Shown here: positions 10,458 to 32,000 of the stretch, one piece after another
Numbering within the stretch: position 1 is the first letter of the stretch
Layout of the letters: the number at the start of each line of letters is the position of its first letter
The notes under the pieces: generated by a model
Told to the model about the DNA's origin: nothing
What the model saw: only the letters and a program-made list of their open reading frames with translations
Database searches by the model: none
Assembly: GCF_029835735.1 (NCBI RefSeq)
Contig: NZ_JAOEAL010000001.1
Coordinates: forward strand, 2,470,530 to 2,502,529
Origin: Shewanella sp. GD04112
Lineage (GTDB): Bacteria > Pseudomonadota > Gammaproteobacteria > Enterobacterales > Shewanellaceae
Length of the DNA stretch: 32,000 bases
Direction of reading: 5' to 3'
Position numbers and translations under genes: made by a program

Positions 10458-10537
10458 AGCCTTCAATAAAATCAGATAGTTATACCTCTATTTCAGAATG
10501 CATCAAAACGAAGATTCTCACATAAATCAGAATGAGC
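10436..10537 (+). repeat. Sub-terminal direct repeats of an about 24-bp unit (ATTCTCAC-N4/5-ATCAGAATGAGC), plus partial copies
   Basis: Copy 1 is 10436-10460 (attctcaccgagaatcagaatgagc). Copy 2 is 10514-10537 (attctcacataaatcagaatgagc). Partial copies are aaaatcagatagt (about 10468) and tttcagaatgcat (about 10491). Confidence 0.8.
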
Positions 10538-11239: not shown

Positions 11240-11399
11240 TGGCAAAAGAAATGGATAAAACTAGGTAGCGAAGTAGTGGTGATTCAACCAACTTGAAATT
11301 AATTTGCCCCTTTCTTTGTTTCGCATGACCAAGTTAGCTCAGCTTGGTATTGAACCGTTGACCTAATTTTAGTAATGCTACAAGTGCCTACTGTTCTAG

Positions 11400-11812: not shown

Positions 11813-11866
11813 TCCTCCACGCTTTTTTACTCAGTTTGTTTTCACAAGCCGTAGTGGAGTTATGAA

Positions 11867-12733: not shown

Positions 12734-12759
12734 GTAATGCCTGTTTTTGCTACATGTTA

Positions 12760-12808
12760 ATGTATACAGACTATACATCAATAAAAACCACAAGTATATT
12801 GGGTATAC
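12760..12808. promoter_or_regulatory. Two GTATAC-containing palindromes in the divergent promoter region (candidate operators)
   Basis: ATGTATAcagacTATACAT (12760-12778) and GTATAttgggTATAC (12794-12808). Both lie between the WYL gene start (12733) and the operon start (12910). Confidence 0.4.
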
Positions 12809-12909
12809 CACTTACCAAACTCAACTTACTAAATTTGCGATAGAAAAATTGGTATTCGAGAAACATGGTAAAAATAGTGATCTAAAACGAGGAGCTTGCG
12901 CAGTTTCCT

Positions 12910-14241: not shown

Positions 14242-15016
14242 TCATCTATTTACACACGCTCAAGACTCAAAGAAACAGTACCTTACACTAGATGATGTAA
14301 TTGATGACCCCCTATTCGCGGATGTAGATTATCGCCTTAGGGGCGGGGTAAACATTACTAGTGAAGATGACCGGTTACATACCTTTCTAGGAGAGACGGA
14401 GAGTGTGCTTCGCAAGTTTTACGGCAAGTTACACCTGGCTCTAGAAGTCACGCCTGAGAAAGTTTATTACCTAAGGCCACAGCGTCGTTCAAATGTTCCT
14501 ACGACCCGATTGAACCAATTAGAAATGGTTATGGGTCTAACGATAGTTGCAATGCAATGGGAAAAAAATGCGACTGATTTCGAATGGATCCCCGTTGATT
14601 TTCTTATTGAACGATTGAAGTCTCAGCTGTCGGACGAACGGTTCGCTGAGTTGTATCGCCGTAAGCCGGGCATTCAGACAGACCATGATGTAGGGCGTGT
14701 GAGAGAGGAAACGTTGAAGAGACTCTCTAGACTGTCACGTCTGAGTTTTATTAGGCTCAACAGAGATGAGCAGACTTTCTGGGCAACTAATGCGATCTAC
14801 AGGTTTATCGAACCTTTGAAAGGCTTGAGCAGCGAAGACGAGTTGCCAGGCCGCATAAGTTCGTTAATCCAAGAGGGTTTTCTTACCGACTCACCTTCGC
14901 CCAGAGAAGAGTTAAGAGACACGCCAAGAACAGAGTCTGAACATTGGTCATCAGAAGGCCTAACTATCGAAGGTGATACTCGCGATATGTTTGATGCGGA
15001 GGAATATGATGCGTAA
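14234..15016 (+). CDS. jetB: MukE-like KITE (JetB/MksE-class) subunit
   Basis: DPLFADVDYRLRGG...FYGKLHLALEVTPEKVYYLRPQRRSNVPTTRLNQLEMVMG parallels E. coli MukE NPLFPALDSALRSG...[40 protein letters not shown] (from memory). It has an acidic C-terminal tail. ATG 14234 overlaps the upstream stop (ATGACTGA). Confidence 0.75.
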   Translation: MTDHLFTHAQDSKKQYLTLDDVIDDPLFADVDYRLRGGVNITSEDDRLHTFLGETESVLRKFYGKLHLALEVTPEKVYYLRPQRRSNVPTTRLNQLEMVMGLTIVAMQWEKNATDFEWIPVDFLIERLKSQLSDERFAELYRRKPGIQTDHDVGRVREETLKRLSRLSRLSFIRLNRDEQTFWATNAIYRFIEPLKGLSSEDELPGRISSLIQEGFLTDSPSPREELRDTPRTESEHWSSEGLTIEGDTRDMFDAEEYDA

Positions 15017-19562: not shown

Positions 19563-20509
19563 TGCATGGACTACTGGAGGATGTAAAGTTAACACCTAAG
19601 CAGGCACTGGCACTTATTGATAAGCTTATTGAGCGCGGGAAAGTGTTGCCCAACCAGAGAGATAGTTTACTGATTGAGCGCCTTGAGCAACTTGGCATAG
19701 TGAAACGAGTGGGGAGTTACTGGCAGCTGTGTGAGCCCCAACGCATTGAGAGTGTTCGTAACCAAATAACGCAATATACTTTGCAAAAAAACAGGCCTGG
19801 TATCTTACGAAAGATGCCCGTTGTACATCATAAAAGTGCTGCTGCCTGGCGAGGACATAGCAAAAGTGGGCAAGGCGAGGCTCTTCAGAAAGGTCAACTG
19901 ATAAGTACAGACGATGTAGTACGGGTCCGCACTCAGAAGACCGGGTTCGTAATATACAGCGATAACGCCACGATTGATACTGACTTGGAGACTCTGCAAA
20001 GGACTGAAGTCAGCTTACCAGAACGGTTGTACAAAGACGCTCATGCGCCCTGTGTCGCTGGGGTAAAGTTGGTGTTGACTGTCGAAAACTTGGGCACATT
20101 TGTTGACTTCCCCATGGTGGATGGACTCGTATTGGTTTACTCATCAGGGAATAACTTTGCATCATCGGTTTGTTTTATCAAGCGCTTCTTGGAAGAGGTG
20201 ACCTGGGCACACTTCCCGGACCTTGATCCCAATGGTCTGATCATATCAACGCAAATGGCAGATACCCTCAACAAACCTTGCAATGTTTGGATTCCACCTC
20301 ATTGGGATAGGGTCCGAGCTCAGCCGCTGGTTTCTGGTAAAGGAAAAAAGGTATGGGGGGAAGCCCCTGCCTGCCCTGAAATCGCAAGTTTGCAGGAAAC
20401 AAGCCATTGGGTTGAGCAAGAGGTTCTCGTCTTAGATCAACGAAGCGTCAAAGCCGTCAGTGAGCTTGTTAGTGAGCCTAAGCTCCGGCTAATAACTCTT
20501 CAATACTAA
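19562..20509 (+). CDS. jetD: JetD/MksG-type Toprim (topoisomerase-VI-like) nuclease subunit, 315 aa
   Basis: The start overlaps the jetC stop (TGATG). Toprim signature: VLTVENLGTFVDF (Glu codon 20084-20086), WAHFPDLDPNGLII (DxD 20228-20236), then HWVEQEVL. The N-terminus looks winged-helix-like (LIDKLIERGKVL..LEQLGIVKRVGSYWQL). Confidence 0.7.
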   Translation: MHGLLEDVKLTPKQALALIDKLIERGKVLPNQRDSLLIERLEQLGIVKRVGSYWQLCEPQRIESVRNQITQYTLQKNRPGILRKMPVVHHKSAAAWRGHSKSGQGEALQKGQLISTDDVVRVRTQKTGFVIYSDNATIDTDLETLQRTEVSLPERLYKDAHAPCVAGVKLVLTVENLGTFVDFPMVDGLVLVYSSGNNFASSVCFIKRFLEEVTWAHFPDLDPNGLIISTQMADTLNKPCNVWIPPHWDRVRAQPLVSGKGKKVWGEAPACPEIASLQETSHWVEQEVLVLDQRSVKAVSELVSEPKLRLITLQY

Positions 20510-20699: not shown

Positions 20700-22010
20700 A
20701 TGAGTATTGAGAAGTTTAGAAGCGTGGAGGAACTAAAACAGTTCTTCGAAGAAGGAGGTAACCCTTGGTTTGATGCAGAATTTTCTCCTCAGACTCAGAG
20801 TATCGTCGAAGCATTGGATGCAAAAGGAGCCTTTCTCAATAAGTGGTGGGTAAGGACCGCCATGGATTGGAAGTGTCCCGCCTGTAAAAGGACTAAGCCC
20901 CAAATAGCCAAACTAGATAATCGTAGATATGCCTCCTGCAAACTGGAGGAGCATCACGATCACATGAAGGATACGGTGCGCACGTTGTTCGAAGAAATAT
21001 CTTCGAACAGAGAAGTCGTTGTTGCAACTGAGCTAGCTAAGCGGTTTGCAATCAGGACGTCCTTTGCAATTTCCGCTTACGATAACACGGTGATTTGCGC
21101 GGATTGTAATAAAGCAGACGGTATTGCAAAACGGATGGTCAAAACTCACAGTGACTTTTCATACTCTCCAGCAGAAATTGGGCGATTTGTAAAACCATCA
21201 GATAATCGAGAGCATGAAATTGACGCGGATATCGCCAAGGAAATTTGGAACGAGAATCTGGAAACGTTCAATAAGCGTATGCAGTTGGCAAAAGTTATAG
21301 CGGAGTTGGCTGCCAGCGATTCACATTGGTATCAACCCTCAGAACCAACAGCCAAGCAAGTCAATGATTCTGCCAATTACAAGTTTAACTTGCGTGGATT
21401 AAGAGACCTTCACGATGATCCTGAAAAGCTTCTATACAATACAACGCCTTTCAAGGGAAACCACTCATCATGGAGATTGAATCCCAAGCCTTTCACAAGT
21501 ACGAGACCAACTGATGGACAAATAGCACATTTATCTAACACCAGGGGGCGGTACTGGAACAGGTACGACGACAGCTGGCAATGCCCATGTTGTGGTCGTT
21601 TAAAGCGGGAATGTCTTAAGCCGTCTAAAAATAACCCTTGGGTGTTTGAAGTAAAGGCCATTCTAGCTCATGATTCTGAGCATCAGTCTTTTGCTGAAGA
21701 AATTAAGGTGTGCAACGAATGTTTCAATGCTGCAAACCATCTTGGCCAGGAAGCAATAAAAGAAGCCAAAGAACAAGATGAGACGGTAGATGTATATTTT
21801 CCACATAGCTTGATACAACTGGAAGAGTTGAAGTCTGTTATAACGCCGAGATTACACTCCTCACATATCATTGATAATGACTTGGCTGAAAACGTGGTTC
21901 GCAATGCCATCAGGCGCATTATTGATGAAGACTATAACCAATCCCCAAAGCACAAGATGAAGCTGCAAGAACAGTTCAGTACAATGCTTTATGGTGGAAG
22001 TTGTGAATAG
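20700..22010 (+). CDS. Protein with two endonuclease-VII/HNH-like zinc modules (436 aa), otherwise unassigned
   Basis: SD aaggatacttaATG. Module 1: WKCPACKRTK...KLEEHHDHMKD...(about 47 aa)...VICADCNKADGIAKR. Module 2: WQCPCCGRLKREC...ILAHDSEHQSFAEEIKVCNECFNAANHLGQ. The layout CxxC...H.DH...CxxCN..(D/E)G is that of the T4 endonuclease VII branch of the HNH fold. Confidence 0.55.
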   Translation: MSIEKFRSVEELKQFFEEGGNPWFDAEFSPQTQSIVEALDAKGAFLNKWWVRTAMDWKCPACKRTKPQIAKLDNRRYASCKLEEHHDHMKDTVRTLFEEISSNREVVVATELAKRFAIRTSFAISAYDNTVICADCNKADGIAKRMVKTHSDFSYSPAEIGRFVKPSDNREHEIDADIAKEIWNENLETFNKRMQLAKVIAELAASDSHWYQPSEPTAKQVNDSANYKFNLRGLRDLHDDPEKLLYNTTPFKGNHSSWRLNPKPFTSTRPTDGQIAHLSNTRGRYWNRYDDSWQCPCCGRLKRECLKPSKNNPWVFEVKAILAHDSEHQSFAEEIKVCNECFNAANHLGQEAIKEAKEQDETVDVYFPHSLIQLEELKSVITPRLHSSHIIDNDLAENVVRNAIRRIIDEDYNQSPKHKMKLQEQFSTMLYGGSCE

Positions 22011-22164
22011 TTCAGCCTTCGCTAGACACGAATGCAGCGACTCCACTGTCTAATTTGATCAAATATTGTGAAGGTCCACTAGAACCGACTTTAAAAAAAA
22101 TCAGTGATTTATATGGGGATTACTAAAATTGGCCTTCTTTTGAGAATTACATGAGGGGAATGAA

Positions 22165-22530
<366 letters not shown>

Positions 22531-22857
22531 CTATGCCACTACACTCATATATTAGAACGTGAGAGCGTGGAGCGGATCGCTGCTCATCCTGGAAATCCGA
22601 TTGGCAATATTGTCGAACTCTGGGAAGAACAGGAAATCGGTGTGACTAAAGAAGCAAAGTTATTGAAGGTAATTGACCGCTTATTGCCATTCTTACATAA
22701 CATGACTAGCGAAGGCCAAGCTTGGAGGGATAATGGAATACATAAAGCCCAAGTGTTGAATATGCACCAATTTATCGAGAAGGAAAGTCCTGAAATTTTT
22801 TCATGGTTTGTTATACAGCTCGAATATGCCGTTGAACAAGGTTGGCTTAAAGCATGA
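22531..22857 (+). pseudogene. 3' fragment of an HD-domain (HD_3-type metal-dependent phosphohydrolase) gene
   Basis: ..IVELWEEQEIGVTKEAKLLKVIDRLLPFLHNMTSEGQAWRDNGIHKAQVLNMHQFIEKESPEIFSWFVIQLEYAVEQGWL matches the C-terminal half pattern of HD_3 proteins. The catalytic HD part is missing, and the frame is open right up to the IS3 terminus at 22530. Confidence 0.55.
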
Positions 22858-23065
22858 TCTTTCATTGGTTGTTTCTTGTCTATCCAGACTAGGCCCGTAA
22901 CTTGTCGATGCCCCATTCAAAGTTATCAACACGACTTGAGATGAGCATCACTAGCCTAATGTTGACCCAAACTAAGTAATGCGACAAAGTCCCCCTGTGT
23001 CAGGATTGTTGTCACCCCTAAATAATCATTATGTTTAAAGACAGGGTGCGGCAAAAGAGAACGAT

Positions 23066-23566
23066 ATGGCTCGGTATTCACCAGAACGTAAAGAAGCGAT
23101 CCTTAAAAAATTATTACCTCCTCACAACTTAACGGTCGCAGAGGTCGCTCGGGAAGAAGGCATCGCGGTGCAAACCTTGTATCATTGGCGAGATATTGCC
23201 AGAAAAGAAGGTCGCCCCGTGCCAGGTAAAACATTAACAGCCGATGATTGGTCGGCTGAAGCAAAACTTGCCGTGATTATTGAAACAGCGCCGCTGTCGG
23301 AAGCGGAGATAAACCAGTATTGCCGTGAAAAGGGCTTGTTCCGCGAGCAAGTACAGCAGTGGAAACAGGATTGTTTAGCTGGTTTTCAAACCTCAGAAGT
23401 ACAAACTAAAACCATTAAACAGCAGGCTAAGGCTGACAAAGCCGAAATCAAATCGCTGCAACGGGAATTGCGCTATAAGGAGAAAGCGCTGGCTGAAGCT
23501 GCTGCGTTACTGGTGCTCAGAAAAAAGCTCAATGCGCTCTGGGGGGACGACAGCGAGGAGAGCTAA
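23066..23566 (+). CDS. IS3-family transposase OrfA (HTH + leucine zipper)
   Basis: MARYSPERKEAILKKLL..LTVAEVAREEGIAVQTLYHWR is an HTH, followed by a coiled-coil tail KAEIKSLQRELRYKEKALAEAAALLVLRKKL. Confidence 0.8.
   Translation: MARYSPERKEAILKKLLPPHNLTVAEVAREEGIAVQTLYHWRDIARKEGRPVPGKTLTADDWSAEAKLAVIIETAPLSEAEINQYCREKGLFREQVQQWKQDCLAGFQTSEVQTKTIKQQAKADKAEIKSLQRELRYKEKALAEAAALLVLRKKLNALWGDDSEES
23521..23527 (+). promoter_or_regulatory. Programmed -1 ribosomal frameshift heptamer A AAA AAG
   Basis: The heptamer is in the X XXY YYZ register of orfA (codons AGA AAA AAG). The -1 frame is open from here into orfB (..AQCALGGRQRGELTPLPERIALI..). Confidence 0.7.
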
Positions 23567-23571
23567 CCCCC

Positions 23572-24621
23572 TTGCCTGAGCGCATAGCATTGATTGCCTT
23601 AATCCAAGAGGCCTATACCAATGGTGCTCGCCTTTATAAGGCTTGTGCTGAAACGGGCCTCAGTAAGCGTACCTATCGACGTTGGTATCGAGAAGGTCAA
23701 GTGCAAGCTGATTTAAGGCCAACAGCAGCTCGACCAGAGCCAGCAAATAAACTCGAAGAACATGAGCGACAACAGATATTAAGTGTGTGCAATCAAGCGG
23801 AGTACGCCAGCTTACCCCCGTCGCAAATTGTGCCAACATTATTAGATAACGGGATTTATATCGCCTCGGAATCCAGCTTCTACAGAGTGTTAAATGCTCA
23901 TGGTCAACTTAACCATCGTGGCCGCACTCAGGCTGCGGTCAATCGAAGCAAACCGTTGAGTTATCGGGCAGATGGGCCGAATCAAGTGTGGTCATGGGAC
24001 ATCACTTATTTAGCCTCAATCGTCAAAGGCCAGTTCTACTATTTGTACCTGTTTGAAGATATTTACAGTAGAAAAATAGTGGGTTACGAAGTTCATGAGC
24101 AAGAAAGTGGGGAATATGCCGCTGCGCTAATCCAACGCTGTCTGTTACGCGAGCAATGCTTTAACACGCCATTAGTGCTGCATTCTGATAATGGGGCGCC
24201 GATGAAGTCACTGACCATGAAAGCCAAGCTGGAAGAGCTTGGTATTACGGCATCATTAAGTCGGCCGCGGGTGAGTAATGACAACCCCTTTTCAGAGTCG
24301 TTATTTAAAACGTTGAAATACCGCCCACAGTGGCCGGCATCAGGTTTTAGCTGCTTAGCAACAGCAAGAGAATGGGTGGAAAAGTTTGTAACCTGGTACA
24401 ACGATGAGCATAAACACAGCCAGCTAAATTTTGTCTCACCAGGGCAACGTCATGCACTGCAAGATGGCGCTATTTTAGCGAAGCGCAAGAAAGTGCTTGA
24501 GGCGGCGAAGGAAAGAAAACCGATGCGTTGGTCTACAGAGATCAGAAATTGTGAAGCGGTTGGCGCTGTAACACTCAACCCAGATAAGGCACCAGAAGAA
24601 GGCGTAATAAATGCAGCTTAA
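23572..24621 (+). CDS. IS3-family transposase OrfB (DDE integrase core; expressed as an OrfAB fusion)
   Basis: WSWDITYL (D), LVLHSDNGAPM (D), SNDNPFSESLFKTLKYR (E); rve-type core. The frame is -1 relative to orfA. Confidence 0.8.
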   Translation: MPERIALIALIQEAYTNGARLYKACAETGLSKRTYRRWYREGQVQADLRPTAARPEPANKLEEHERQQILSVCNQAEYASLPPSQIVPTLLDNGIYIASESSFYRVLNAHGQLNHRGRTQAAVNRSKPLSYRADGPNQVWSWDITYLASIVKGQFYYLYLFEDIYSRKIVGYEVHEQESGEYAAALIQRCLLREQCFNTPLVLHSDNGAPMKSLTMKAKLEELGITASLSRPRVSNDNPFSESLFKTLKYRPQWPASGFSCLATAREWVEKFVTWYNDEHKHSQLNFVSPGQRHALQDGAILAKRKKVLEAAKERKPMRWSTEIRNCEAVGAVTLNPDKAPEEGVINAA

Positions 24622-24764
24622 TATTTAAACAAAGAGTGACAACTATCTTGAAAAACACCGAAGTCGCCGACTCTAACTATGGCGATTCTGCGCCGCTTAC
24701 TACTAATAATCATTAAGTTAATTATTCTTAAATATCTGAAAGGAAGCACCTATGATAGGCATTA

Positions 24765-25106
24765 TTGCCGATTGTCTTGGTTTACCTGGGCGTCCTACTC
24801 TTTTTAAGCCAGATTCTGCTATGGAAAATGCCTGCTGGGGGCAAGAAAACAATGGTTTCTCTGCTGCTGTTGCCGCTGCTGGCAGGCCTAAGCTTTATTG
24901 ATGAAATATGGGCCAGGCACCAGTTTCAGGCCTTATGCGCAGAAGATAATTTACTAAGCTACCAGGCGGATAAGGTCAGGGGGCAAGCGGTCAGCACCAA
25001 AGCGCTGATCCGGAACAATATCAGCGCAGCCGTGCCTATCGTTGAGCATACCCGGTACTGGTTTGTAGCTGGCACTGATGACATCGTGATCACCAGCAAA
25101 AGTTAG
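24765..25106 (+). CDS. Hypothetical small membrane protein (2 predicted TM helices); doubtful start (TTG)
   Basis: Hydrophobic N-terminus IVLVYLGVLLFLSQILLW and LLLLPLLAGLSF. It is more GC-rich than the DNA downstream. A competing ATG at 24752 with a good SD lies in another frame. The ORF ends at a TAG that is in frame with the next ORF. Confidence 0.25.
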   Translation: MPIVLVYLGVLLFLSQILLWKMPAGGKKTMVSLLLLPLLAGLSFIDEIWARHQFQALCAEDNLLSYQADKVRGQAVSTKALIRNNISAAVPIVEHTRYWFVAGTDDIVITSKS

Positions 25107-26018
25107 TTAGAAAATGGAAATTTATCTCCTCAAGATGCTGAGAAGCAATTAAGCGACATCTTAGTTCCGTTATTAAATGAAGATGGGTATAACATTGTTC
25201 AGACTCCTTTTCGCGGTGACATTGGAGTAGATTTTATTGCTGAGAAGCAACTTTCCACTAACCTAGAGCAAGTGGGAATCGAATATAAGCACTATAAATC
25301 TGCTGTAGGTGTCGATGCTGTTCGCCGGTTACTGGGAACAACATTTACTCACAACTTTGACCGTTTAATTTTAGTAACCAAATCTCGTTTTACTAAAGCT
25401 GCCCTTGAGCTTGCGAATTCGGCTTTACCAGTCAAGCTTGAACTAATTGACTTAGATGCTCTAAGAGCGTGGGTGCAGAGAGCAGAAAAAACTGAAGACT
25501 ATGACTTCGAACTAGTAAATATTATTCGTTCCAATATTAGCGAGCGGTTAGCAGTGCTAATAGCTAAAAATCCGCGATATCTAATGGATATTGAATGGAG
25601 AGAGCTTGAGTATGTTATTCAAACCGTTTTTGAAGAGCTAGGGTTCAGCGCAGAACTTACCCCAGGAAGCAAAGATGGCGGTAAAGATTTAGTGCTTACC
25701 TGTAGGATTTCTGGGCAAGATCATACATATTACGTAGAGCTGAAGCACTGGAGATCCCAACAAAAAGTAGGTGGACAAGCTGCTAGAGGTTTCCTGAAAG
25801 TGATTGTTAATGAAGAAGTGAATGGTGGGTTATTTCTTTCTTCATATGGTTATTGTGAGAATGCGTTTGAAATGTTGACTGAAATTGACAGAAAACATTT
25901 AAAGTTCGGCGATCAGAAAAAAATCGTTACATTATGTACACAATACGTTAAGTCTAAATCTGGTATTTGGTCTCCTACTAGCGGTTTATCGGAAGTATTG
26001 TTTGAACAAACTATATAA
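25107..26018 (+). pseudogene. Tandem Mrr-like (PD-(D/E)xK restriction-endonuclease fold) domain protein with no credible start for domain 1
   Basis: Domain 1: GYNIVQTPFRGDIGVDFIAEK...VGIEYKHYKS..VGVDAVRRLLG...LILVTKSRFTKAA. Domain 2: LGFSAELTPGSKDGGKDLVLT...YYVELKHWRS..VGGQAARGFL..GGLFLSSYGY. The frame is open from 25107, immediately after TAG 25104-25106. The first in-frame start (GTG 25272) falls inside the E-x-K motif of domain 1. Confidence 0.5.
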
Positions 26019-26046
26019 ATTCGCCTAACAAGGCGCTCAAGAATGA

Positions 26047-26069
26047 CAAAAAACGCTTGGCGTTTTTTG
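26047..26069. terminator. Bidirectional terminator-like palindrome (A6-stem-loop-T6)
   Basis: caaaaaacgc ttg gcgttttttg, 29 nt after the Mrr-like stop codon. The GC core of the stem is short. Confidence 0.4.
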
Positions 26070-26277
26070 CATCTTAGCTTTGCGTTAACCCATAGAAATT
26101 TTTATCCGAAAATGTCGAGTTAGAGTTAAGGCTTTAACTCGGAATTGTCCAATTACTTGATAGAGCATTTAATACAAATGAAAGAATAGGGCGGAATAAA
26201 AGTAGTCACAAAATTAGTGTTTTAAGATGCTTATTACATTGACAAATGCCATACATTTTTTACAAGGAAGCATCTTC

Positions 26278-26748
26278 ATGATATCAGTAACTTTTCACGA
26301 AAACTCGAGGCGTACACGTCAATTCAAGTCTGAAAATGGAGCTTTGAAGGCCGTATGGAAATGGCTTAAAGCAACAGAAGACGATAACGCCTATGCAGTG
26401 ATTATTGGTCCTATGTATTCTGAGCCAAGAGTCATCAAAGGCTGGCAAGAACTTCCATTCAGTGAACCTGAAAATTTAGACTTTTTGCAGACTAAGGAAT
26501 GGCGTCGACTGAGACAACAGGCCTTTGAGTTATATGGAAACTTTTGTGCCTGCTGTGGTAGAGGTCCAAAAGATGGCGTAGTGCTTCATGTAGATCATAA
26601 AAAACCTCGTTCGAAATATCCAAAACTTCAAGATGACATCAACAATCTTCAGATTCTTTGTGAAGAACACAACCAAATGAAATCCAATACATCTGAGCGC
26701 GATTGGGCTCAGTGGTGCCAAGCCAACTCTGTACGTGGCACTAAATAG
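26278..26748 (+). CDS. HNH endonuclease (small, stand-alone)
   Basis: Classical motif CACCGRGPKDGVVLHVDHKKPRSKYP....NLQILCEEHNQMKSN. The ATG at 26278 follows aaggaag; the track start at 26227 is less likely. Confidence 0.8.
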   Translation: MISVTFHENSRRTRQFKSENGALKAVWKWLKATEDDNAYAVIIGPMYSEPRVIKGWQELPFSEPENLDFLQTKEWRRLRQQAFELYGNFCACCGRGPKDGVVLHVDHKKPRSKYPKLQDDINNLQILCEEHNQMKSNTSERDWAQWCQANSVRGTK

Positions 26749-26834: not shown

Positions 26835-26904
26835 ATTCTCACGTATTTCAGAATAGAGCACCTAAATCAGAATAGTGAGAACATTCTGATTCTCAGTGAG
26901 AATT
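26835..26904. repeat. Cluster of the same about 24-bp units as at 10436-10537, here in opposed orientations (mini-palindromic block)
   Basis: attctcacgtatttcagaatagagc (26835-26859, + orientation). atcagaatagtgagaac is a partial copy. cattctgattctcagtgagaat (26882-26903) is in inverted orientation and is part of IR-R. Confidence 0.8.
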
Positions 26905-26908
26905 GTCA
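26882..26908 (-). repeat. Right terminal inverted repeat (IR-R) of the accessory segment
   Basis: Its reverse complement, TGACAATTCTCACTGAGAATCAGAATG, matches 10431-10457 at 25/27. It ends ..CA at 26907-26908 and is followed by CGCA (26909-26912), the same tetranucleotide that precedes IR-L. Confidence 0.8.
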
Positions 26909-26944
26909 CGCATAGGGAATAGTGCTTTCCATATTTACTCACAT

Positions 26945-27178
26945 TCAATTTAACATAATATACATTGTGCGCATCCTTTTTTTTGAGGAATGTTCACACA
27001 GCCTTTTTGAGTCGGCCAGTATTAAGAGAACGTGCCATATAGGGAACATGATCACGATTGAGACATAGAACTCAGCCATAGATTTAAACTCAATTTCAGA
27101 TTCAATAGGAACCCAAAGAGTAACTTTAGTTAGACCAGAGGCGCGCTTCTTAGCTTCATACTTAGAGTTGCGACTCAT
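26945..27178 (-). CDS. Small ORF with a ribbon-helix-helix-like N-terminus whose 3' end reads through dif
   Basis: MSRNSKYEAKKRASGLTKVTLWVPIESEIEFKSMAEF resembles RHH/DUF3018-type small regulators. The last about 10 codons (..KKRMRTMYIMLN) are encoded by the dif sequence itself. Confidence 0.4.
   Translation of the reverse strand: MSRNSKYEAKKRASGLTKVTLWVPIESEIEFKSMAEFYVSIVIMFPIWHVLLILADSKRLCEHSSKKRMRTMYIMLN
26948..26975 (-). other. dif: dif site (XerC/XerD chromosome-dimer resolution site), doubling as the prophage junction
   Basis: The plus strand reads ATTTAACATAA TATACA TTGTGCGCATC. The reverse complement of E. coli dif (GGTGCGCATAATGTATATTATGTTAAAT, from memory) is ATTTAACATAATATACATTATGCGCACC, giving 26/28 identity. 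Confidence 0.8.
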
Positions 27179-27348
27179 GGCGTCACCAGTGACGGGGCAT
27201 TCTTAGCACCTTCAACAGGTATCAACTCGCAAAAGGAATTAATAAAATCGAAATAAGTGTTATGAGTATAGATAACACCGAGAGCAAAACCTAAGAAAAC
27301 AAAAACAAGTAAAACAAAAACAACAAAAAGTATTTCTTGAATATCCAT
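27175..27348 (-). CDS. Small phage membrane protein (57 aa)
   Basis: One strongly hydrophobic helix (ILFVVFVLLVFVFLGFALGVIY). ATG 27348 follows ggag. It overlaps the next ORF start (ATGA-type). Confidence 0.35.
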   Translation of the reverse strand: MDIQEILFVVFVLLVFVFLGFALGVIYTHNTYFDFINSFCELIPVEGAKNAPSLVTP

Positions 27349-27368
27349 AAATATAATCTCCAATTATT

Positions 27369-27400
27369 GGGAGGGGGCGCTCCGCTTGCCTCCCCCTCCC
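27369..27400 (-). terminator. GC-rich hairpin immediately after the zot-like stop codon
   Basis: gggaggggg (27369-27377) pairs with ccccctccc (27392-27400) across a 14-nt loop. There is no clean U tract on the minus strand, so a terminator or attenuator role is tentative. Confidence 0.35.
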
Positions 27401-28740
27401 TACCTATTTGCAAGCGAGTATTCACGGTCAGATTGATTAGTTTCAGGTTTGACCTTAATCAAGGGCTGACAAGTGATAAAAGTAGTAAAGTCATTAAATT
27501 TAAGTCTGGCTAAACATTCAGTTATAGGTGAGACAACAAATCCAACCGAACTAGGTAAAAAAACCTCATCAGTAACGGGATTGTAAAAGGAATAATCATA
27601 ATGAACTAAGCCATTGGATTTTTTTACATACTGGGAACCTGAAATATAAACATCCTTTGTAGCATCAGAAACGAACTTAGTTAAAAGCTGTGTTTCAGCA
27701 TCATCAAGTAAAGATGATGATTTAGGCAAAAGAGAAACTTTTGACTTGGGCTCATTAGGGGATGCAGTCTCAGGCGTTTGGAGAACTGAGTCAGGGACAG
27801 CAGAGGTTTTATCAAAAAACAATGTATTGGCAAATGAGTAAACAGAAAAAACAACAACAAAAATAAGAATAATCAAAATATAAAATATCTTGGGCATCTT
27901 AAATTTATGGGTATGCAGTTCAGCACTAAAATAAGAGCCATAGAAATTCGTTGGCCTCTTAATTAATGACTTTTGGCAATTTTTGACATCGTGATAATCA
28001 TCAACATCAAAACTTTTTGAGTTCTGATAACGAGCGACACGGTTAGAGTTAAACGCATTATGATAGTGAACATGGCGATTGACTAAACGCCTTACGTTAC
28101 TATCTAAAAGCATTCTATCCTGTGTAATTAAATGTATATCGTAACCATCATGGCGGTGAGTCTCAAATTTTGAAATATGAGGTGGAACTGTAGAACCCAC
28201 AGGACGAGGCGGGAAAAATTGCTGACACTCATCAATTAGGATAATGCTCTGCTTTGGTAGATTGAACCAATCCTTAGGGTTAGCAAAATGAGTAAAATGT
28301 AAATTCAAGTGCTCAAGGTGTGAGAACTCAACCTTATCGTAAGGCATATTGCTTAGGAACTCATCAAGCAGAGCCGTCTGCTTTGATGAATAAAGTTTTT
28401 TAACCCAAAACAGCCAAGTGTCTAGATGGTTGGCCGTATTGTAATAAGGCTCAAGCCAAGGAACGTCAGACAGTTGAATCAAATCACCGTTATCGTGAAC
28501 CCGTTTGATAATTTTACGAATGCGCTTTAGTGCCTGTTTGTTCTTCAAACGGTACATATAAAGACCGTAGAACCAGCCAGAAAAACTAGAGGCAACCTCA
28601 AAATCAAGCATCAACAACTTGATGTTATTATAAAAAATTGGCCTAGTGCCATTATTAGCGCCAACAAGATAAGCAATGGTATTCAGCGATTTAGACGCGC
28701 CCGGCTTCCCTGTAACTAACTCTAACATTATGCGCTCCAA
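27400..28740 (-). CDS. Zot/pI-like phage assembly ATPase
   Basis: N-terminal P-loop ELVTGKPGASKS, a Walker-B-like IILIDECQQFF, a single central TM helix (IFYILIILIFVVVFSVYSF), then a periplasmic C-terminal domain. This is the architecture of filamentous-phage gene I/Zot proteins. Confidence 0.8.
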   Translation of the reverse strand: MERIMLELVTGKPGASKSLNTIAYLVGANNGTRPIFYNNIKLLMLDFEVASSFSGWFYGLYMYRLKNKQALKRIRKIIKRVHDNGDLIQLSDVPWLEPYYNTANHLDTWLFWVKKLYSSKQTALLDEFLSNMPYDKVEFSHLEHLNLHFTHFANPKDWFNLPKQSIILIDECQQFFPPRPVGSTVPPHISKFETHRHDGYDIHLITQDRMLLDSNVRRLVNRHVHYHNAFNSNRVARYQNSKSFDVDDYHDVKNCQKSLIKRPTNFYGSYFSAELHTHKFKMPKIFYILIILIFVVVFSVYSFANTLFFDKTSAVPDSVLQTPETASPNEPKSKVSLLPKSSSLLDDAETQLLTKFVSDATKDVYISGSQYVKKSNGLVHYDYSFYNPVTDEVFLPSSVGFVVSPITECLARLKFNDFTTFITCQPLIKVKPETNQSDREYSLANR

Positions 28741-29078
28741 TCAACAGGTGATTTGTCGCCCGGCTTACGCCAAACAAGCTGCCTAGAGTAGCCGCTTTTG
28801 GAGACTCCTTTTAATACCATAAGCGCAACGCCGCTAGACATTGCAATATTTAAAGCCGTATCAATCCCAAGTAGGTGAATAAAAGTGGCTATATGAGGAA
28901 ATATAATTGAAGATGCAGAAGCATTTAAACGGTTAATTATTTCGTCAAAAATAAAACCTACTCCCGCATAAGTAACTGTACCAAAGCCAATAGCAACACC
29001 AATACGAGCAACAGAAGCGGTAATAAATTGACCAAGGAAAGGAAAAATAGAAGCAAGTAATAAAGGTATGAATTGCAT
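28728..29078 (-). CDS. pVI-like minor coat/membrane protein
   Basis: 116-aa polytopic hydrophobic protein located between the pIII-like and Zot-like genes, with overlapping stop/start. Assignment is positional only. Confidence 0.5.
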   Translation of the reverse strand: MQFIPLLLASIFPFLGQFITASVARIGVAIGFGTVTYAGVGFIFDEIINRLNASASSIIFPHIATFIHLLGIDTALNIAMSSGVALMVLKGVSKSGYSRQLVWRKPGDKSPVDWSA

Positions 29079-29087
29079 ATTTACCCC

Positions 29088-30659
29088 TTAGTGATATTTG
29101 ACAATCATTAAACCAGAAGCAACAGAAGCAAACGCAATTAAGAAGAACTTAATAACAGTTGCCAAGTCACAGAATGGTGATAAGTCGATAGTAAAGGTGG
29201 TAATTTTGGCATCAACAACATAAGGAGGTGGACAGGTATCAGAACCACCAAAATTAACACCGTTAGAAGAATTGTAATGCTCAGTAAATTGTTTTATGTC
29301 TACAGTGCCAGCATCTAAATTTTTAATATCAGAATCTTCACTATTTATAAAATCAGTAAGTGAATTTGTGGCAGCATTAACAGATTCAGAGGCAGAAAGT
29401 TCATCGGCAATAGTTTTACAACGGGACTCCCACTCCTTACGAGCGATATAGCATTGTGGGCTATTGGTAGAGCATACAAAAGTTTCGCAACCGTTCTCAG
29501 TAATAGCATCAGGGTCAGAGCCAGAGCCATCGCCAATCTTTCCAATGGCATCGACAATACTTTGCTCGGATTTACCAATAGCGCCTTCAATATCACGCAT
29601 ACGAACAGCAATATCTGTAAGGTTACTGTTTGCATCTAAAAGCTGCTCGACAACATCGGAATTATCAGAAGATGCACCACCAACAGAGCCTTTAATATCG
29701 GACAGAGTACTATTTACTTTCATTAACTCATTATATTGAGCCATCATCATTTCTAGCTTCTGCATTTCGAGTTGTAAGTCACCACCACCACCTCCACCTC
29801 CACCTTGAGCAATACGGCCTAATAAATCAGTAATAGTATTTGAAAGAGTATTATTTATAGCAGGGATTGAGGCAGAATTATTATTTATATTAGAAGAATC
29901 GGAGCTAATTTGACCTAACTTGTCTGCCATATAACCCAAAACTTGCATATATTCACCAGTAGAAGATGAACCGCCGCCAGATTGGGCTTTAATAGAATCT
30001 CGAATTTCAGCTAGGATAACTTGATTCTGTGAAACCCATTGCGTTTGGTATTGAATATCCGAGCGAACGCCACTCACACCACTGGCAAGAGCATTGCCTA
30101 AACCATCGGTACGATTAATTAAATCAGTGAACTGGTTAAAGTTCTGCCATCTTAATTGGTCAATAGATGTTTTAGTGTAAGAGGATTGTCTCGCACCCTT
30201 TAAAAGTGCGTCATAAATAACGCCTAAATCCGTGTGAATATCCTTAAGTTCAGTTGTAAAAGTAGTTGGCACCCAAGGATAAGGCGATAAGTTATCAGAA
30301 CTAGGGTCGGGAAAATTTGGGTTAGGATTTAGGTCAGGGTCTGGATTAGTACCACCGCCTCCGTCTTGACAGTTGTTAACGTCAGTTTCAAAGTAAACCA
30401 TCCAAACAGTGCAAAATGGGTTTTGCGGGTCGCCAGTTGCACAAACTAAATTTGTGCCCTTCCATGAAAAATCGTTTGAATCACATTGGGTATGGAAAAA
30501 AGCATTAGCGTCAGACTCAGCAGTAGCGCCAGTAAAATCAAAGGAAATTTCAACGCCAGGAGTTGCAGGTGGGGAATAAGCGAACGCAGGAGAACTTAAA
30601 CAAGCTAAAAGAAGATACGCCGCACGCAATCTGTAAGAACGAGAAGGACTAAAAGCCAT
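29088..30659 (-). CDS. pIII-like adsorption/minor coat protein
   Basis: Signal peptide ..LLACLSSPAFA. Cys-containing N-terminal domain. Pro/Asn/Asp-rich linker (GGGTNPDPDLNPNPNFPDPS). A Gly8 run. C-terminal membrane anchor (FFLIAFASVASGLMIVKY). It sits directly after the major coat gene. Confidence 0.65.
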   Translation of the reverse strand: MAFSPSRSYRLRAAYLLLACLSSPAFAYSPPATPGVEISFDFTGATAESDANAFFHTQCDSNDFSWKGTNLVCATGDPQNPFCTVWMVYFETDVNNCQDGGGGTNPDPDLNPNPNFPDPSSDNLSPYPWVPTTFTTELKDIHTDLGVIYDALLKGARQSSYTKTSIDQLRWQNFNQFTDLINRTDGLGNALASGVSGVRSDIQYQTQWVSQNQVILAEIRDSIKAQSGGGSSSTGEYMQVLGYMADKLGQISSDSSNINNNSASIPAINNTLSNTITDLLGRIAQGGGGGGGGDLQLEMQKLEMMMAQYNELMKVNSTLSDIKGSVGGASSDNSDVVEQLLDANSNLTDIAVRMRDIEGAIGKSEQSIVDAIGKIGDGSGSDPDAITENGCETFVCSTNSPQCYIARKEWESRCKTIADELSASESVNAATNSLTDFINSEDSDIKNLDAGTVDIKQFTEHYNSSNGVNFGGSDTCPPPYVVDAKITTFTIDLSPFCDLATVIKFFLIAFASVASGLMIVKYH

Positions 30660-30729
30660 ATTAAATCCTGTAATGTGATAAGCATAAAACCCCTAAGGAG
30701 GGGCAAGCCCCTCACAGAGAAAACGACTA

Positions 30730-30933
30730 TTAGCCGAAGATTGCGCCTTTAGCCCATTTAAAAACGACCGCGATAGCAGCAAGGCCAAGCATGGCACCAC
30801 CGACAGCAGTTAACGCAGCAGAACCATCGGTAGTAATCGCTGTTGTAGCAGCAGTCACATCGATAGCAGCACTAGCAGAAGAAGCAGCAACGGCAGAACC
30901 TAAAGCCACAGCGGATACAAGGTACTTTTTCAT
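30730..30933 (-). CDS. Major coat protein (pVIII/Cep-like)
   Basis: 67 aa. Signal peptide MKKYLVSAVALGSAVAASSASA. The mature part of about 45 aa has an acidic/neutral N-terminus, a hydrophobic core and a basic C-terminus (..VVFKWAKGAIFG). Confidence 0.8.
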   Translation of the reverse strand: MKKYLVSAVALGSAVAASSASAAIDVTAATTAITTDGSAALTAVGGAMLGLAAIAVVFKWAKGAIFG

Positions 30934-30948
30934 AAATCACCTATTTAG

Positions 30949-31164
30949 TTAGAAGCCGATTTGACGGCGGACGAGTTTTATAACAAATGCAATTGCGTAG
31001 AGTCCCGCAATAGCACTAAACAAAGCAAAGACCTCGGGCTGAGTGATTTGATTATCAAGCTGTTTAGCTTCAACAAGTAGATAACCGTCACAAGGGTCAG
31101 CGGTAGATACCTGTAAAAGAGTACCGCTTAGGCCGTTGGGAACCTCAACAACACAGAGAGCCAT
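30949..31164 (-). CDS. Small hydrophobic phage protein (pVII/pIX-position minor coat candidate)
   Basis: 71 aa with a C-terminal TM helix (VFALFSAIAGLYAIAFVIKLV). Assignment is positional only. Confidence 0.4.
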   Translation of the reverse strand: MALCVVEVPNGLSGTLLQVSTADPCDGYLLVEAKQLDNQITQPEVFALFSAIAGLYAIAFVIKLVRRQIGF

Positions 31165-31176
31165 TGCTTTGAATCC

Positions 31177-31497
31177 TTACGCCTTGCGAACAGCAGTAGG
31201 CGCTTCAAAAAGATGGAAGCCGTTAATAGAAACGTGCTTGCCTTCAGCATTAGCAAAAGACAATTCTTTATATTCGATTGAAAGAGTAATCCGCTGGTCA
31301 ACGGAAGCCTTCAAAGTCTCAATAGTTTTATTATCTTTTACAAGAGCCTCTGAAACATGAACATCTAATATCTGTGAAGGTGAAGATGCTAAAAAACGGA
31401 AAACACCAACATCAACAGATTCACCAGTCTGGTAATTTTTGATTTTTGGTTTAATTTGAATATCAGTTAAATCGGGGATTCTGCCTTCAATTTTCAT
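31177..31497 (-). CDS. Candidate ssDNA-binding protein (gene V position)
   Basis: 106-aa soluble, beta-rich-looking ORF immediately downstream of the replication gene, with SD aaaggaaatacaaaATG. Assigned by size and position only. Confidence 0.45.
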   Translation of the reverse strand: MKIEGRIPDLTDIQIKPKIKNYQTGESVDVGVFRFLASSPSQILDVHVSEALVKDNKTIETLKASVDQRITLSIEYKELSFANAEGKHVSINGFHLFEAPTAVRKA

Positions 31498-31556
31498 TTT
31501 GTATTTCCTTTCAGTTAAAAAAATGGGTCGGGACAGTTATTGACACGAGTCCAAGG

Positions 31557-32000
31557 CTAATGTCGAAACACCATAGCGCTCGCTTCGCTCGCTGGTGTTT
31601 CATCATTAGCTAAAGCATCAAGCCATAAAGCTTGCATTTCTTCATACTCCTGCACATGGCGCTCATATTCGGCATAGTCCTGTTCGGCCATACGTTGATA
31701 TTCGCGCTCCATTTCGAGAATGTCGAAAATATCAACAACGCCAGACATGACTTGCTTACGGGCTGCTATGTACTCCTCTTTGTTGACAAGCTTCCAATTT
31801 TTGAAGCGGGTAGCCTTGAAAACGCCGTGAAAAAGAACGCCATTAACGCGAGCGTGAGCAGCATCGCCATAGCGGGTTTTTGCATGTTCTGGCGCATCAA
31901 AAAGTTTGGAGATAACCGCGGGAACGGCATAATGGGTTTTTACAGTTTGGTCGGCGCGGCGAACAAAAATACCGCCCATGGCCATGCAGAAAGCGCCCCA
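31557..32000 (-). CDS. Phage replication-initiation protein (gene II/RstA-like), C-terminal part only; 5' end lies outside the window
   Basis: The minus-strand frame is open from the window edge (..WGAFCMAMGGIFVRRADQ..) to the stop at 31557. It is the first gene of the phage module. Assignment is mostly positional. Confidence 0.45.
   Translation of the reverse strand, partial: WGAFCMAMGGIFVRRADQTVKTHYAVPAVISKLFDAPEHAKTRYGDAAHARVNGVLFHGVFKATRFKNWKLVNKEEYIAARKQVMSGVVDIFDILEMEREYQRMAEQDYAEYERHVQEYEEMQALWLDALANDETPASEASAMVFRH

What the first reader, a model, noticed from the sequence alone, without database searches (positions are those of the whole stretch)
24765..26018. Two Mrr-type nuclease domains in one frame, separated from an upstream membrane ORF by a single in-frame TAG
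Seen:
- 25107-26018 encodes two consecutive PD-(D/E)xK modules (GDIGVDFIAE..IEYKHY and DGGKDLVLT..VELKHW).
- The frame opens right after TAG 25104-25106, and the 113-codon ORF upstream (24765-25106, 2 TM helices) is in the same frame.
- Base composition changes at the junction; the upstream part looks more GC-rich.

Inference: there are two readings. One is a nonsense-mutated membrane-anchored double nuclease. The other, which I favour, is a recombination junction that decapitated a tandem-Mrr gene. Tandem Mrr-cat domains in one polypeptide would be an unusual pseudo-dimeric architecture in either case.
Basis: partly seen in the sequence, partly recalled or inferred. Interest (0 to 1): 0.4.

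Follow-up and report, generated by a model that had tools for sequence, protein, structure and literature searches.

The report
Beheaded tandem-Mrr nuclease gene remnant
This is the scar of an old DNA rearrangement in Shewanella sp. ANA-3 that joined the front of a small membrane-protein gene to a two-domain restriction-type nuclease gene lacking its first nine codons and its start signals; it is an ordinary dead gene, but the intact nuclease family is widespread, mobile and untested.

Summary
Window 25107-26015 encodes two Pfam Mrr_cat domains, both with their D…(E/Q)xK residues. A TAG at 25104-25106 separates them in frame from a 113-codon, two-helix membrane ORF. GC drops from about 52% to 36% at that point.

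Homology to a 169-aa Shewanella membrane-protein gene ends at 25105. Homology to intact 312-aa tandem-Mrr genes begins at 25106. The TAG is a hybrid codon: TA from a Tyr codon on the left, G from a Leu codon on the right. It is not a nonsense mutation.

The nuclease has lost only nine poorly conserved codons, but also its ATG, ribosome-binding site and 5' cassette boundary. The next in-frame start, GTG 25272, lies inside domain 1. The membrane gene is also dead: a 5-nt frameshift, a lost 3' third, and ISSpu6 upstream. A contig with the same joint but no IS shows the joint is older.

The tandem architecture is not rare. About 90 of the best 150 50%-identity cluster representatives span both domains. 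In Vibrio parahaemolyticus the gene is a single-gene integron cassette, and the window keeps an attC-like site at 26023-26090.

An apparent open "fusion" protein in the database is a gene-calling artefact. Interest is low.

The parts
22909..22989 (+). Left-parent DNA upstream of the IS. It is the intergenic leader of the 169-aa membrane-protein gene.
   Evidence: 95.3% identical to S. electrica L020 9758-9842. Contiguous with 24661 onward in the IS-free contig L012.
22990..24660 (+). ISSpu6 (IS3 family), with orfA 23066-23566 and orfB 23572-24621. It is flanked by a 3-bp target duplication AAG (22987-22989 and 24661-24663).
   Evidence: 99.5-100% identical to annotated ISSpu6 copies on Shewanella, Klebsiella and Citrobacter plasmids. 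Pfam HTH_Tnp_1 and rve. Empty site in L012.
24664..25105 (+). 5' two-thirds of a 169-aa small membrane-protein gene (left parent). The native ATG is at 24752. A 5-nt deletion after 24769 shifts the frame, and the annotated 113-codon ORF Shewana3_2102 then runs 24765-25106.
   Evidence: Homologues P0122 (169 aa) and P0123 (142 aa) continue ...ITSKS-YYAQGGW.... DNA alignments. Frameshift shown.
25104..25106 (+). Hybrid TAG stop codon spanning the joint 25105|25106. TA comes from a Tyr codon (TAT) of the left parent and G from a Leu codon (TTG) of the right parent. There is no overlapping microhomology.
   Evidence: Five-way alignment of the window with both pairs of parents. TAG is present in 5 independent contigs.
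25106..26018 (+). 5'-truncated tandem-Mrr endonuclease gene (right parent), codons 10-312 plus the stop. The ATG, RBS and 5' cassette boundary are missing.
   Evidence: 91% nt identity to L001 5159-6084 and 85% to V. parahaemolyticus cassettes. 93% aa identity to the 312-aa P0001. The window lacks MELDSRINL.
25143..25472 (+). Mrr_cat domain 1, the more variable one. D42 is at 25230-25232, E59 at 25281-25283 and K61 at 25287-25289.
   Evidence: Pfam stretch at residues 13-122. Conservation.
25272..25274 (+). GTG, the first in-frame start codon after the TAG and the start of the GenBank 248-aa CDS ABK48333.1. It lies between the D and the ExK of domain 1.
   Evidence: Start-codon scan. Cluster look-up.
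25590..25964 (+). Mrr_cat domain 2, the highly conserved effector module. D194 is at 25686-25688, E211 at 25737-25739 and K213 at 25743-25745.
   Evidence: Second Pfam stretch. 107/107 invariance of D, E, K, H, W and R. The same module sits behind other N-terminal regions in other proteins.
26023..26090 (+). attC-like recombination site ending the cassette. R'' is GCCTAAC, L'' is GCTCAAG, then a central hairpin, L' is CTTAGC (one base shorter than L'') and R' is GTTAACC.
   Evidence: Read from the sequence. The bottom strand folds at -17.1 kcal/mol, z = -4.1. The 5' half aligns with the V. parahaemolyticus attC that follows the same gene.

Best explanation
The feature is a non-homologous joint between two unrelated, co-oriented genes in a defence and mobile-element island of Shewanella sp. 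ANA-3.

The left side is the first 119 of 169 codons of a small two-helix membrane protein gene. In S. electrica this gene sits next to Tn7-like transposition genes and a type I-F CRISPR locus. The right side is a single-gene, integron-type cassette for a 312-aa nuclease made of two Mrr-type PD-(D/E)xK domains.

The break removed the cassette's 5' boundary, its leader and ribosome-binding site, the ATG and codons 1-9. The two reading frames happened to coincide. The codon straddling the joint (TA + G) became a stop.

The nuclease body is otherwise intact, with no internal stops and all family-invariant residues present. It has no in-frame start before GTG 25272, which is inside domain 1, so it is most likely a silent pseudogene. 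The membrane gene is also dead (5-nt frameshift, 3' truncation). ISSpu6 later inserted 92 bp upstream of its ATG.

Inferred function of the intact family: a stand-alone defence nuclease. An invariant C-terminal Mrr_cat effector is preceded by a more variable second Mrr_cat domain. The pair may act as a single-chain pseudo-dimer able to cut both DNA strands, with no partner methyltransferase, so it resembles type IV enzymes or a regulated suicide nuclease. Losing the start signals is a simple way to silence such a potentially toxic gene.
For: Shown:
- Both Mrr_cat domains and their catalytic residues are present.
- Homology switches parents between 25105 and 25106.
- Intact membrane-protein homologues are 169 aa and diverge exactly after ...ITSKS.
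- Intact nuclease homologues are 312-325 aa and start 9 codons upstream of 25107. The alignment median is 15 residues N-terminal to the joint.
- There is a 5-nt deletion in the membrane ORF.
- ISSpu6 has a 3-bp duplication, and an empty site occurs in a contig that already carries the joint.
- TAG is present in 5 independent assemblies.
- There is no in-frame ATG, GTG or TTG between 25107 and 25272, and no sigma-70-like promoter on the + strand in 24600-26300.
- The cassette nature is supported. In V. parahaemolyticus the same gene lies between about 125-nt attC repeats with different neighbours in different strains. The window has an attC-like site after the stop.
- No methyltransferase neighbour and no conserved partner gene appears in the eight loci examined.
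- Domain 2 is far more conserved than domain 1 (entropy 1.11 against 2.00 bits). It also recurs behind other N-terminal regions.
- The nearest solved folds are single catalytic domains of MspJI, AspBHI, AF1548, FokI and LlaBIII.
- The window context is a defence island: a Wadjet JetABCD operon, a WYL regulator, an HNH nuclease gene and a filamentous prophage.
Against: - No expression data exist. The 303 remaining codons carry no stop, frameshift or loss of an invariant residue. The event is therefore recent, or a shorter product is still selected: 248 aa from GTG 25272, or the 144-aa domain 2 from ATG 25584 that NCBI annotates in Shewanella sp. GD04112.
- The pre-rearrangement arrangement was not found. 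In S. electrica the membrane gene has no tandem-Mrr gene within 10 kb. A simple deletion cannot be told apart from a joining of imported DNA.
- The biochemical role of the intact family is inference only. AlphaFold pTM is 0.57, so the inter-domain geometry is uncertain and the pseudo-dimer idea is untested.
Confidence: 0.9

Rival explanations
1. A once-functional membrane-anchored double nuclease (2 TM helices plus 2 Mrr_cat domains) was knocked out by a point nonsense mutation at 25104-25106.
For: The two ORFs share a frame. A real precedent exists for a 2-TM domain fused to Mrr_cat: 'Epona', in a V. cholerae integron cassette (10.1101/2024.07.02.601686). A database protein, P0128, reads ...ITSKSQLENG... 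with Q in place of the stop.
Against: The DNA behind P0128 reads TAG in all five retrievable contigs, and the tool flags 'translates_to_query: no'. The Q therefore comes from gene calling with a TAG=Gln code. The membrane ORF's homologues continue with an unrelated 56-aa tail. The nuclease homologues have their own ATG 9 codons upstream, and the longest ones show no obvious hydrophobic N-terminal segment. GC steps at the joint. The TA of TAG matches the left parent's Tyr codon and the G matches the right parent's Leu codon.
Confidence: 0.02
2. The remnant is still a working gene. A shortened nuclease is made from an internal start, either 248 aa from GTG 25272 or the 144-aa domain 2 from ATG 25584. 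It acts as a homodimer, like single-domain Mrr-type nucleases.
For: Domain 2 is complete and every invariant residue is retained. There are no disabling mutations in 303 codons. GenBank and NCBI annotate the 248-aa and 144-aa products. Domain 2 occurs with other N-terminal regions elsewhere, so it is a self-contained module.
Against: Neither start has a recognisable Shine-Dalgarno sequence within 20 nt. No + strand promoter-like site was found. The annotated starts are simply the first available start codons. The intactness is equally explained by a recent event, since the other carriers are 99.7-100% identical.
Confidence: 0.1
3. The joint was made by the integron integrase acting at secondary sites, because both parents carry GTTA at the break, rather than by generic illegitimate recombination or deletion.
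For: The right parent is an integron cassette. The sequences at the break are AAAGTTA|TTACG on the left and CTT|GTTAGAA on the right, which resemble the GTTRRRY core.
Against: IntI exchanges strands between G and TT (established knowledge of integron recombination). That would leave a single GTTAG, but the window has GTTAGTTAG, with the right-parent G retained. No intI gene is in the window.
Confidence: 0.07
4. Sequencing or assembly artefact: a chimeric join or a miscalled base in the ANA-3 assembly.
For: None beyond the abrupt composition change.
Against: Five contigs from five separate sequencing runs reproduce the joint and the TAG exactly. One of them lacks the IS.
Confidence: 0.01

Closest known systems
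Uncharacterised tandem-Mrr_cat 'restriction endonuclease' family (e.g. V. parahaemolyticus P0002, Pseudoalteromonas WP_099029331.1, Rubrivivax gelatinosus P0025; 312-325 aa)
   Same: The window copy is 93% identical over all 303 remaining residues to the 312-aa member P0001. It has the same two domains, linker and C-terminal tail, and all invariant residues.
   Different: The window copy lacks codons 1-9, the start codon, the RBS and the 5' cassette end. It is a truncated member, most likely a pseudogene.
E. coli Mrr and Type IV modification-dependent restriction enzymes (MspJI, AspBHI)
   Same: The Mrr_cat catalytic fold and the D…(E/Q)xK motif are shared. The best structural matches of the model are the catalytic domains of MspJI (4f0q, 4f0p) and AspBHI (4oc8). 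The gene is solitary, with no methyltransferase partner.
   Different: There is no N-terminal winged-helix or SRA-like DNA-recognition domain. A second Mrr_cat domain stands in its place. Modification dependence is untested.
Epona (V. cholerae chromosomal-integron defence cassette: 2-TM holin-like domain fused to Mrr_cat; 10.1101/2024.07.02.601686)
   Same: It is integron-cassette borne and has an Mrr_cat effector. The window superficially shows the same order, 2 TM helices followed by Mrr_cat.
   Different: Here the TM part belongs to an unrelated, truncated and frameshifted gene and is cut off by a stop. It is a scar, not a fusion protein. Homology to Epona itself was not tested, because no sequence was available.
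Integron gene cassettes (Vibrio superintegron type)
   Same: It is a single promoterless ORF followed by an attC with R''/L''/L'/R' boxes. In V. parahaemolyticus the same gene lies between attC repeats with different neighbours in different strains.
   Different: The window copy is not in a visible cassette array, no intI is in the window, and the 5' cassette boundary is deleted.
Single-chain pseudo-dimeric restriction enzymes such as Sau3AI (recalled from the literature, not tested here)
   Same: The concept is shared: two nuclease-fold domains in one polypeptide, one strongly conserved and catalytic, the other more relaxed.
   Different: No sequence or structural match to these was found. 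In the tandem-Mrr family the less conserved domain mostly keeps its catalytic triad.

Membership tests
Pfam Mrr_cat (PF04471) PD-(D/E)xK nuclease domain, present twice | Profile match above the gathering score, in two separate stretches | tested here: met
   130.7 bits against a cut-off of 21, with 2 stretches. The same holds in homologues.
Pfam Mrr_cat (PF04471) PD-(D/E)xK nuclease domain, present twice | Catalytic D…(D/E/Q)xK residues in each domain | tested here: met
   D42/E59/K61 and D194/E211/K213 are present. Family frequencies are 99%, 92% (E+Q) and 95% for domain 1, and 100% at each position for domain 2.
Tandem-Mrr 312-325 aa family | End-to-end collinear alignment over both domains and the linker | tested here: met
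   100% of the 303 residues align, with 93% identity to P0001.
Tandem-Mrr 312-325 aa family | Own start codon and N-terminal helix (an intact gene) | tested here: not met
   The first 9 codons and the ATG are replaced by foreign DNA at 25105|25106. The next in-frame start is GTG 25272.
Type IV (Mrr-like) restriction enzyme | N-terminal DNA-recognition domain (Mrr_N winged helix, SRA, etc.) | tested here: not met
   There are no Pfam or NCBIfam hits other than nuclease-domain families.
Type IV (Mrr-like) restriction enzyme | Cleavage dependent on modified DNA | not testable with these tools
   This needs biochemistry.
Type II restriction-modification system | Adjacent cognate DNA methyltransferase | tested here: not met
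   No methyltransferase domain is among the neighbours in L001-L005, L013, L014 or L017, or in the window.
Integron gene cassette | 3' attC with R''-L''…L'-R' boxes, an extrahelical base and a foldable bottom strand | tested here: met
   26023-26090 reads GCCTAAC/GCTCAAG…CTTAGC/GTTAACC. The fold z-score is -4.1. This is pattern reading only; no attC covariance model was available.
Integron gene cassette | Same gene found between attC sites with different neighbours (mobility) | tested here: met
   V. parahaemolyticus L002, L004 and L005 share only about 1.23 kb: the roughly 1.1-kb cassette plus the similar upstream attC repeat.
Integron gene cassette | Intact 5' boundary (G|TTRRRY) and a neighbouring intI or cassette array in this genome | tested here: not met
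   The 5' boundary is deleted. No integrase domain appears among the window ORFs of at least 90 aa that were scanned. The rest of the genome was not searched.
Epona-like membrane-anchored Mrr_cat effector | One continuous ORF joining the TM domain to Mrr_cat, conserved among homologues | tested here: not met
   A stop sits at the joint in all 6 sequences. The homologues of each half are separate genes.
ISSpu6 (IS3 family) | Near-identity to named copies, orfA/orfB with a DDE (rve) domain, 3-bp target duplication | tested here: met
   99.5-100% identity over 1.67 kb. HTH_Tnp_1 and rve. AAG duplication and an empty site.

The most novel reading that the evidence does not exclude
The intact tandem-Mrr protein may be a previously unrecognised class of single-chain, self-sufficient anti-phage nuclease that travels as an integron cassette. 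Its invariant C-terminal Mrr_cat module would be a swappable effector and the N-terminal Mrr_cat a second active site or a sensor. The ANA-3 remnant might still yield a domain-2-only product with residual activity.
Probability: 0.12. Interest if true: 0.45.

Novelty: new member of a known kind. Interest (0 to 1): 0.15.

Why it matters
For this locus, very little. It is a well-resolved example of how defence genes decay in genomic islands: an illegitimate joint, then an IS insertion.

It is also a caution for annotation. GenBank lists the two halves as a 113-aa 'hypothetical protein' and a 248-aa 'restriction endonuclease'. One public gene catalogue even contains a 388-aa 'fusion' created by calling TAG as glutamine.

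The broader point worth keeping is that the intact tandem-Mrr gene is a widespread, mobile, single-gene nuclease with no solved structure and no characterised member. It is found in Vibrio integron cassettes, beside TIR and SIR2 genes in rhizobia, and next to IS elements in Rubrivivax. It would be a reasonable candidate for a phage-defence screen.

Tried and rejected
- The database protein P0128 (388 aa, Q at the stop position) first looked like an open fusion allele. The contig DNA shows TAG, so it is a genetic-code artefact of the gene caller.
- I checked whether the longer nuclease homologues (P0053, P0081, P0094) carry TM helices. Their extensions are Arg-rich or low-complexity and look like over-called starts (read by eye).
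- NCBIfam has no model for the nuclease or the membrane protein. PADLOC gives only domain-level hits (PDC-S02, ZorD, mREase_IV).
- A PDB sequence search with the family profile found nothing significant (best E 0.62). Foldseek found only single-domain matches, with TM-score normalised to the query at most 0.35.
- The phage collection has no match to the region. Plasmids match only the IS.
- I tested whether the region is the cargo of the known ANA-3 I-F3 CAST. That element lies at Shewana3_3847-3864, far from Shewana3_2099-2103.
- I looked for a genome with the membrane gene and the nuclease as neighbours. The only species representative with the membrane gene, S. electrica C32, has no tandem-Mrr gene within 10 kb.
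- IntI secondary-site recombination was considered as the origin of the joint and judged unlikely, because GTTAG is duplicated rather than single.
- Literature searches for 'tandem Mrr', 'two Mrr' and 'Mrr_cat' found no paper on this architecture. The V. parahaemolyticus integron-defence paper cited by others is not in the searchable library.
- The sequence after the HNH gene (26749 onward) was read for a second attC. Only an R''-like GTCCAAC was seen, with no convincing L'/R' boxes.
Full report
**What is in the sequence**

A 113-codon ORF (TTG start) ends at TAG 25104-25106, and 303 further sense codons follow in the same frame up to TAA 26016-26018.

The 303-residue part matches Pfam Mrr_cat in two separate stretches (E 3.5e-38). 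The first stretch also matches NA-iREase1 and Mrr_cat_2. The 113-residue part has no Pfam hit. It has two hydrophobic segments, whereas the nuclease part has none. GC falls from 0.50-0.525 (24800-25099) to 0.36-0.405 (25100-25399).

**Source**

The 113-aa ORF is identical to Shewana3_2102. The 248-aa product from GTG 25272 is ABK48333.1, 'restriction endonuclease [Shewanella sp. ANA-3]'. The window is therefore part of the ANA-3 chromosome.

The surroundings are as follows:
- a formate dehydrogenase operon (4661-10120);
- a defence island with a WYL regulator (11867-12811, minus strand) and a Wadjet JetABCD operon (12910-20509);
- an uncharacterised 436-aa protein (20700-22010);
- a patchwork of gene fragments and IS debris (22100-22990);
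- ISSpu6;
- the feature itself;
- a PtuB-like HNH gene (26227-26748);
- filamentous-prophage genes, including Zot and DUF2523 (27400-30659, minus strand).

**The right-hand parent**

A search with the 303 residues returns 251 proteins. The best 120 are nearly all 290-340 aa and share the two-domain make-up. They come from Vibrio, Photobacterium, Pseudoalteromonas, Shewanella algae, Rubrivivax, Chromobacterium, rhizobia, Burkholderia and cyanobacteria.

Aligned with 13 of them, the window protein is collinear from its first residue. It lacks only the first nine residues of its closest relative (MELDSRINL in P0001, 93% identical). At the DNA level, homology to the contig carrying P0001 starts at window 25106 and runs to 26031 at 91% identity.

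In a 107-sequence alignment, the domain-2 motif residues D, E, K, H, W and R are invariant. Domain 1 keeps D in 106/107, E or Q in 98/107 and K in 102/107.

**The left-hand parent**

The 113-aa ORF has only three relatives. Apart from the ANA-3 protein itself, the two that extend past the joint are a 169-aa protein (P0122) and a 142-aa protein (P0123). Both continue ...ITSKS-YYAQGGWISRLIGFP... for 56 more residues after the point where the window has its stop.

With the IS removed in silico, window 22956-25105 aligns to the P0122 contig at 89% identity. Window 22909-25105 aligns to Shewanella electrica C32 at 95-96%. In both cases homology ends at exactly 25105.

A five-way alignment shows the switch between 25105 and 25106. 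The left parents read AAAAGTTA|TTACGCC. The right parents read AACTT|GTTAGAAAATGG. The window reads AAAAGTTA|GTTAGAAAATGG.

The TAG is therefore a hybrid codon: TA from a Tyr codon, G from the third base of a Leu codon. There is no overlapping microhomology. The matching reading frames are a one-in-three accident.

The membrane gene carries a second lesion. A 5-nt deletion after 24769 breaks the frame that starts at its native ATG (24752, preceded by AAAGGAAG). This is why annotation falls back on TTG 24765.

**The IS and the order of events**

ISSpu6 occupies 22990-24660. It is 99.5-100% identical to named copies and has an AAG target duplication. Public contig L012 carries the same joint but an uninterrupted GCGACAAAGTCGCCG at the IS site. 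The joint therefore predates the IS insertion, and the IS did not create it.

Five contigs from different sequencing runs are 99.7-100% identical to the window across the joint, and all read TAG.

**An artefact worth recording**

The protein cluster containing the ANA-3 product includes a 388-aa entry, P0128, that reads straight through the joint with Q in place of the stop. It looked like an open fusion allele. The contigs said to encode it contain TAG, and the look-up tool reports that they do not translate to the query. The Q comes from a gene caller using a code in which TAG is glutamine.

**Consequences for expression**

The truncation removes the cassette's 5' boundary, about 30 nt of leader with the GAGGAAA ribosome-binding site seen in Vibrio and in L001, the ATG and nine codons.

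The nine residues lie in the least conserved part of the family (entropy 2.67 bits; one annotated homologue starts even later). The loss that matters is therefore translation initiation.

No in-frame ATG, GTG or TTG occurs until GTG 25272. That start falls between the catalytic D and the ExK of domain 1 and has no clear Shine-Dalgarno sequence. The next ATG (25584) would give domain 2 alone. No sigma-70-like promoter was found on the + strand.

I conclude that the gene is most likely silent. Its body has no other defect, so a short residual product cannot be excluded.

**What the intact gene is**

In four V. parahaemolyticus genome contexts the gene lies between about 125-nt attC repeats. Its neighbours differ from strain to strain. 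All genes run in one direction, among acetyltransferase-type cassettes. This is the signature of a superintegron cassette.

The window retains an attC-like site directly after the stop (26023-26090). It has R'' GCCTAAC, L'' GCTCAAG, a strong central hairpin, L' CTTAGC (one base shorter than L'', as in classical attC sites) and R' GTTAACC. Its 5' half aligns with the Vibrio attC.

Elsewhere the gene sits next to IS110 elements (Rubrivivax), next to a resolvase and upstream of TIR and SIR2 genes (Sinorhizobium), or in an array of small unidirectional ORFs (S. algae). It never has a methyltransferase or any other recurring partner.

**Size and modularity of the family**

An exhaustive profile search of 1.84 billion cluster representatives finds 411 at E<=1e-30. 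About 90 of the best 150 cover both domains. About 50 match only profile positions from about 145 to 322 (linker plus domain 2), behind unrelated N-terminal regions, one of which is an AAA ATPase. Domain 2 is also much better conserved than domain 1.

An AlphaFold model is confident per residue (pLDDT 88.8) but not in domain arrangement (pTM 0.57). Its nearest solved folds are single catalytic domains of MspJI, AspBHI, AF1548, FokI, LlaBIII and EcoT38I. No solved structure shares the tandem layout. The two domains are about 21% identical to each other.

**Mechanism**

The parts shown are the joint, its parents, the order of events and the loss of start signals.

The function of the family is inferred. 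The intact protein is probably a stand-alone defence nuclease in which an invariant Mrr_cat effector is paired in one chain with a second, more variable Mrr_cat domain. This plausibly lets a monomer present two active sites to duplex DNA. It has no protecting methylase, so it would either target modified or foreign DNA or be kept in check some other way. Beheading such a gene is a simple route to tolerance.

**Comparison with known systems**

It is a truncated member of an annotated but uncharacterised 'restriction endonuclease' family. It shares the catalytic domain with Mrr and other Type IV enzymes but lacks their recognition domain. It resembles integron-borne single-gene defence cassettes. 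One of these, Epona, is a true 2-TM plus Mrr_cat fusion (10.1101/2024.07.02.601686). The ANA-3 locus only mimics that layout by accident.

**Verdict**

The membrane-anchored-nuclease reading is rejected. The 'unusual architecture' claim is downgraded to 'common but unstudied'. This is a new, broken member of a known kind, and its interest is low.

Noticed in passing
window 11867-20509: A complete Wadjet-type operon is present: MukF-like 12910-14241, MksE/MukE-like 14204-15016, MukB-like 1529 aa at 14973-19562, and JetD_C at 19559-20509. A divergently transcribed WYL-domain regulator lies at 11867-12811.
   Followed up: partly
window 20700-22010: A 436-aa Cys/His-rich protein (Shewana3_2099) lies directly after JetD. 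It has no Pfam, NCBIfam or PADLOC hit. Its cluster includes a 436-aa S. halotolerans protein. It may be an unrecognised defence gene.
   Followed up: partly
window 22100-22990: This stretch is a patchwork of fragments: a 53-codon ORF start (22165-22326) cut by an IS3-family orfA fragment on the minus strand (about 22297-22550); the C-terminal 96 codons of an HD_3 phosphohydrolase (22567-22857); then the membrane-gene leader from 22909. There are several further rearrangement joints here.
   Followed up: partly
L020 (Shewanella electrica C32) 6874-16074: The intact 169-aa membrane-protein gene sits immediately after rve-type (615 aa) and AAA-type (342 aa) ORFs that I read as Tn7-like TnsB and TnsC. 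It also lies beside an apparent CRISPR array and ORFs that I read as cas6f and cas7f. That would place it inside or at the edge of a type I-F3 CRISPR-associated transposon. In ANA-3 the homology starts just after the position of the tnsC-like stop codon. These ORFs were read from translations, not scanned against Pfam.
   Followed up: partly
protein P0128; loci L008-L012: A public gene catalogue holds a 388-aa 'protein' that reads through the TAG as Gln. The contigs contain TAG, so short-contig gene calling with an alternative genetic code manufactures a false fusion protein.
   Followed up: yes
window 26227-26748: A solitary HNH endonuclease gene lies right after the attC-like site. Its weak hits to PtuB and retron-type HNH models fall well below the NCBIfam cut-offs. 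Other assemblies call it as 195, 174 or 156 aa. No convincing attC was seen after it.
   Followed up: partly
window 26900-32000 (minus strand): Filamentous (Inovirus-like) prophage genes are present: a Zot-family assembly ATPase at 27400-28740, DUF2523 at 28728-29078, and a 523-aa protein at 29088-30659. The prophage abuts the defence island.
   Followed up: no
family-wide (alignment A5; proteins P0202-P0292): The linker plus domain 2 module (SKDGGKD…ExKHWR) recurs behind unrelated N-terminal regions, including an 885-aa AAA-ATPase protein. This suggests a swappable nuclease effector module.
   Followed up: partly
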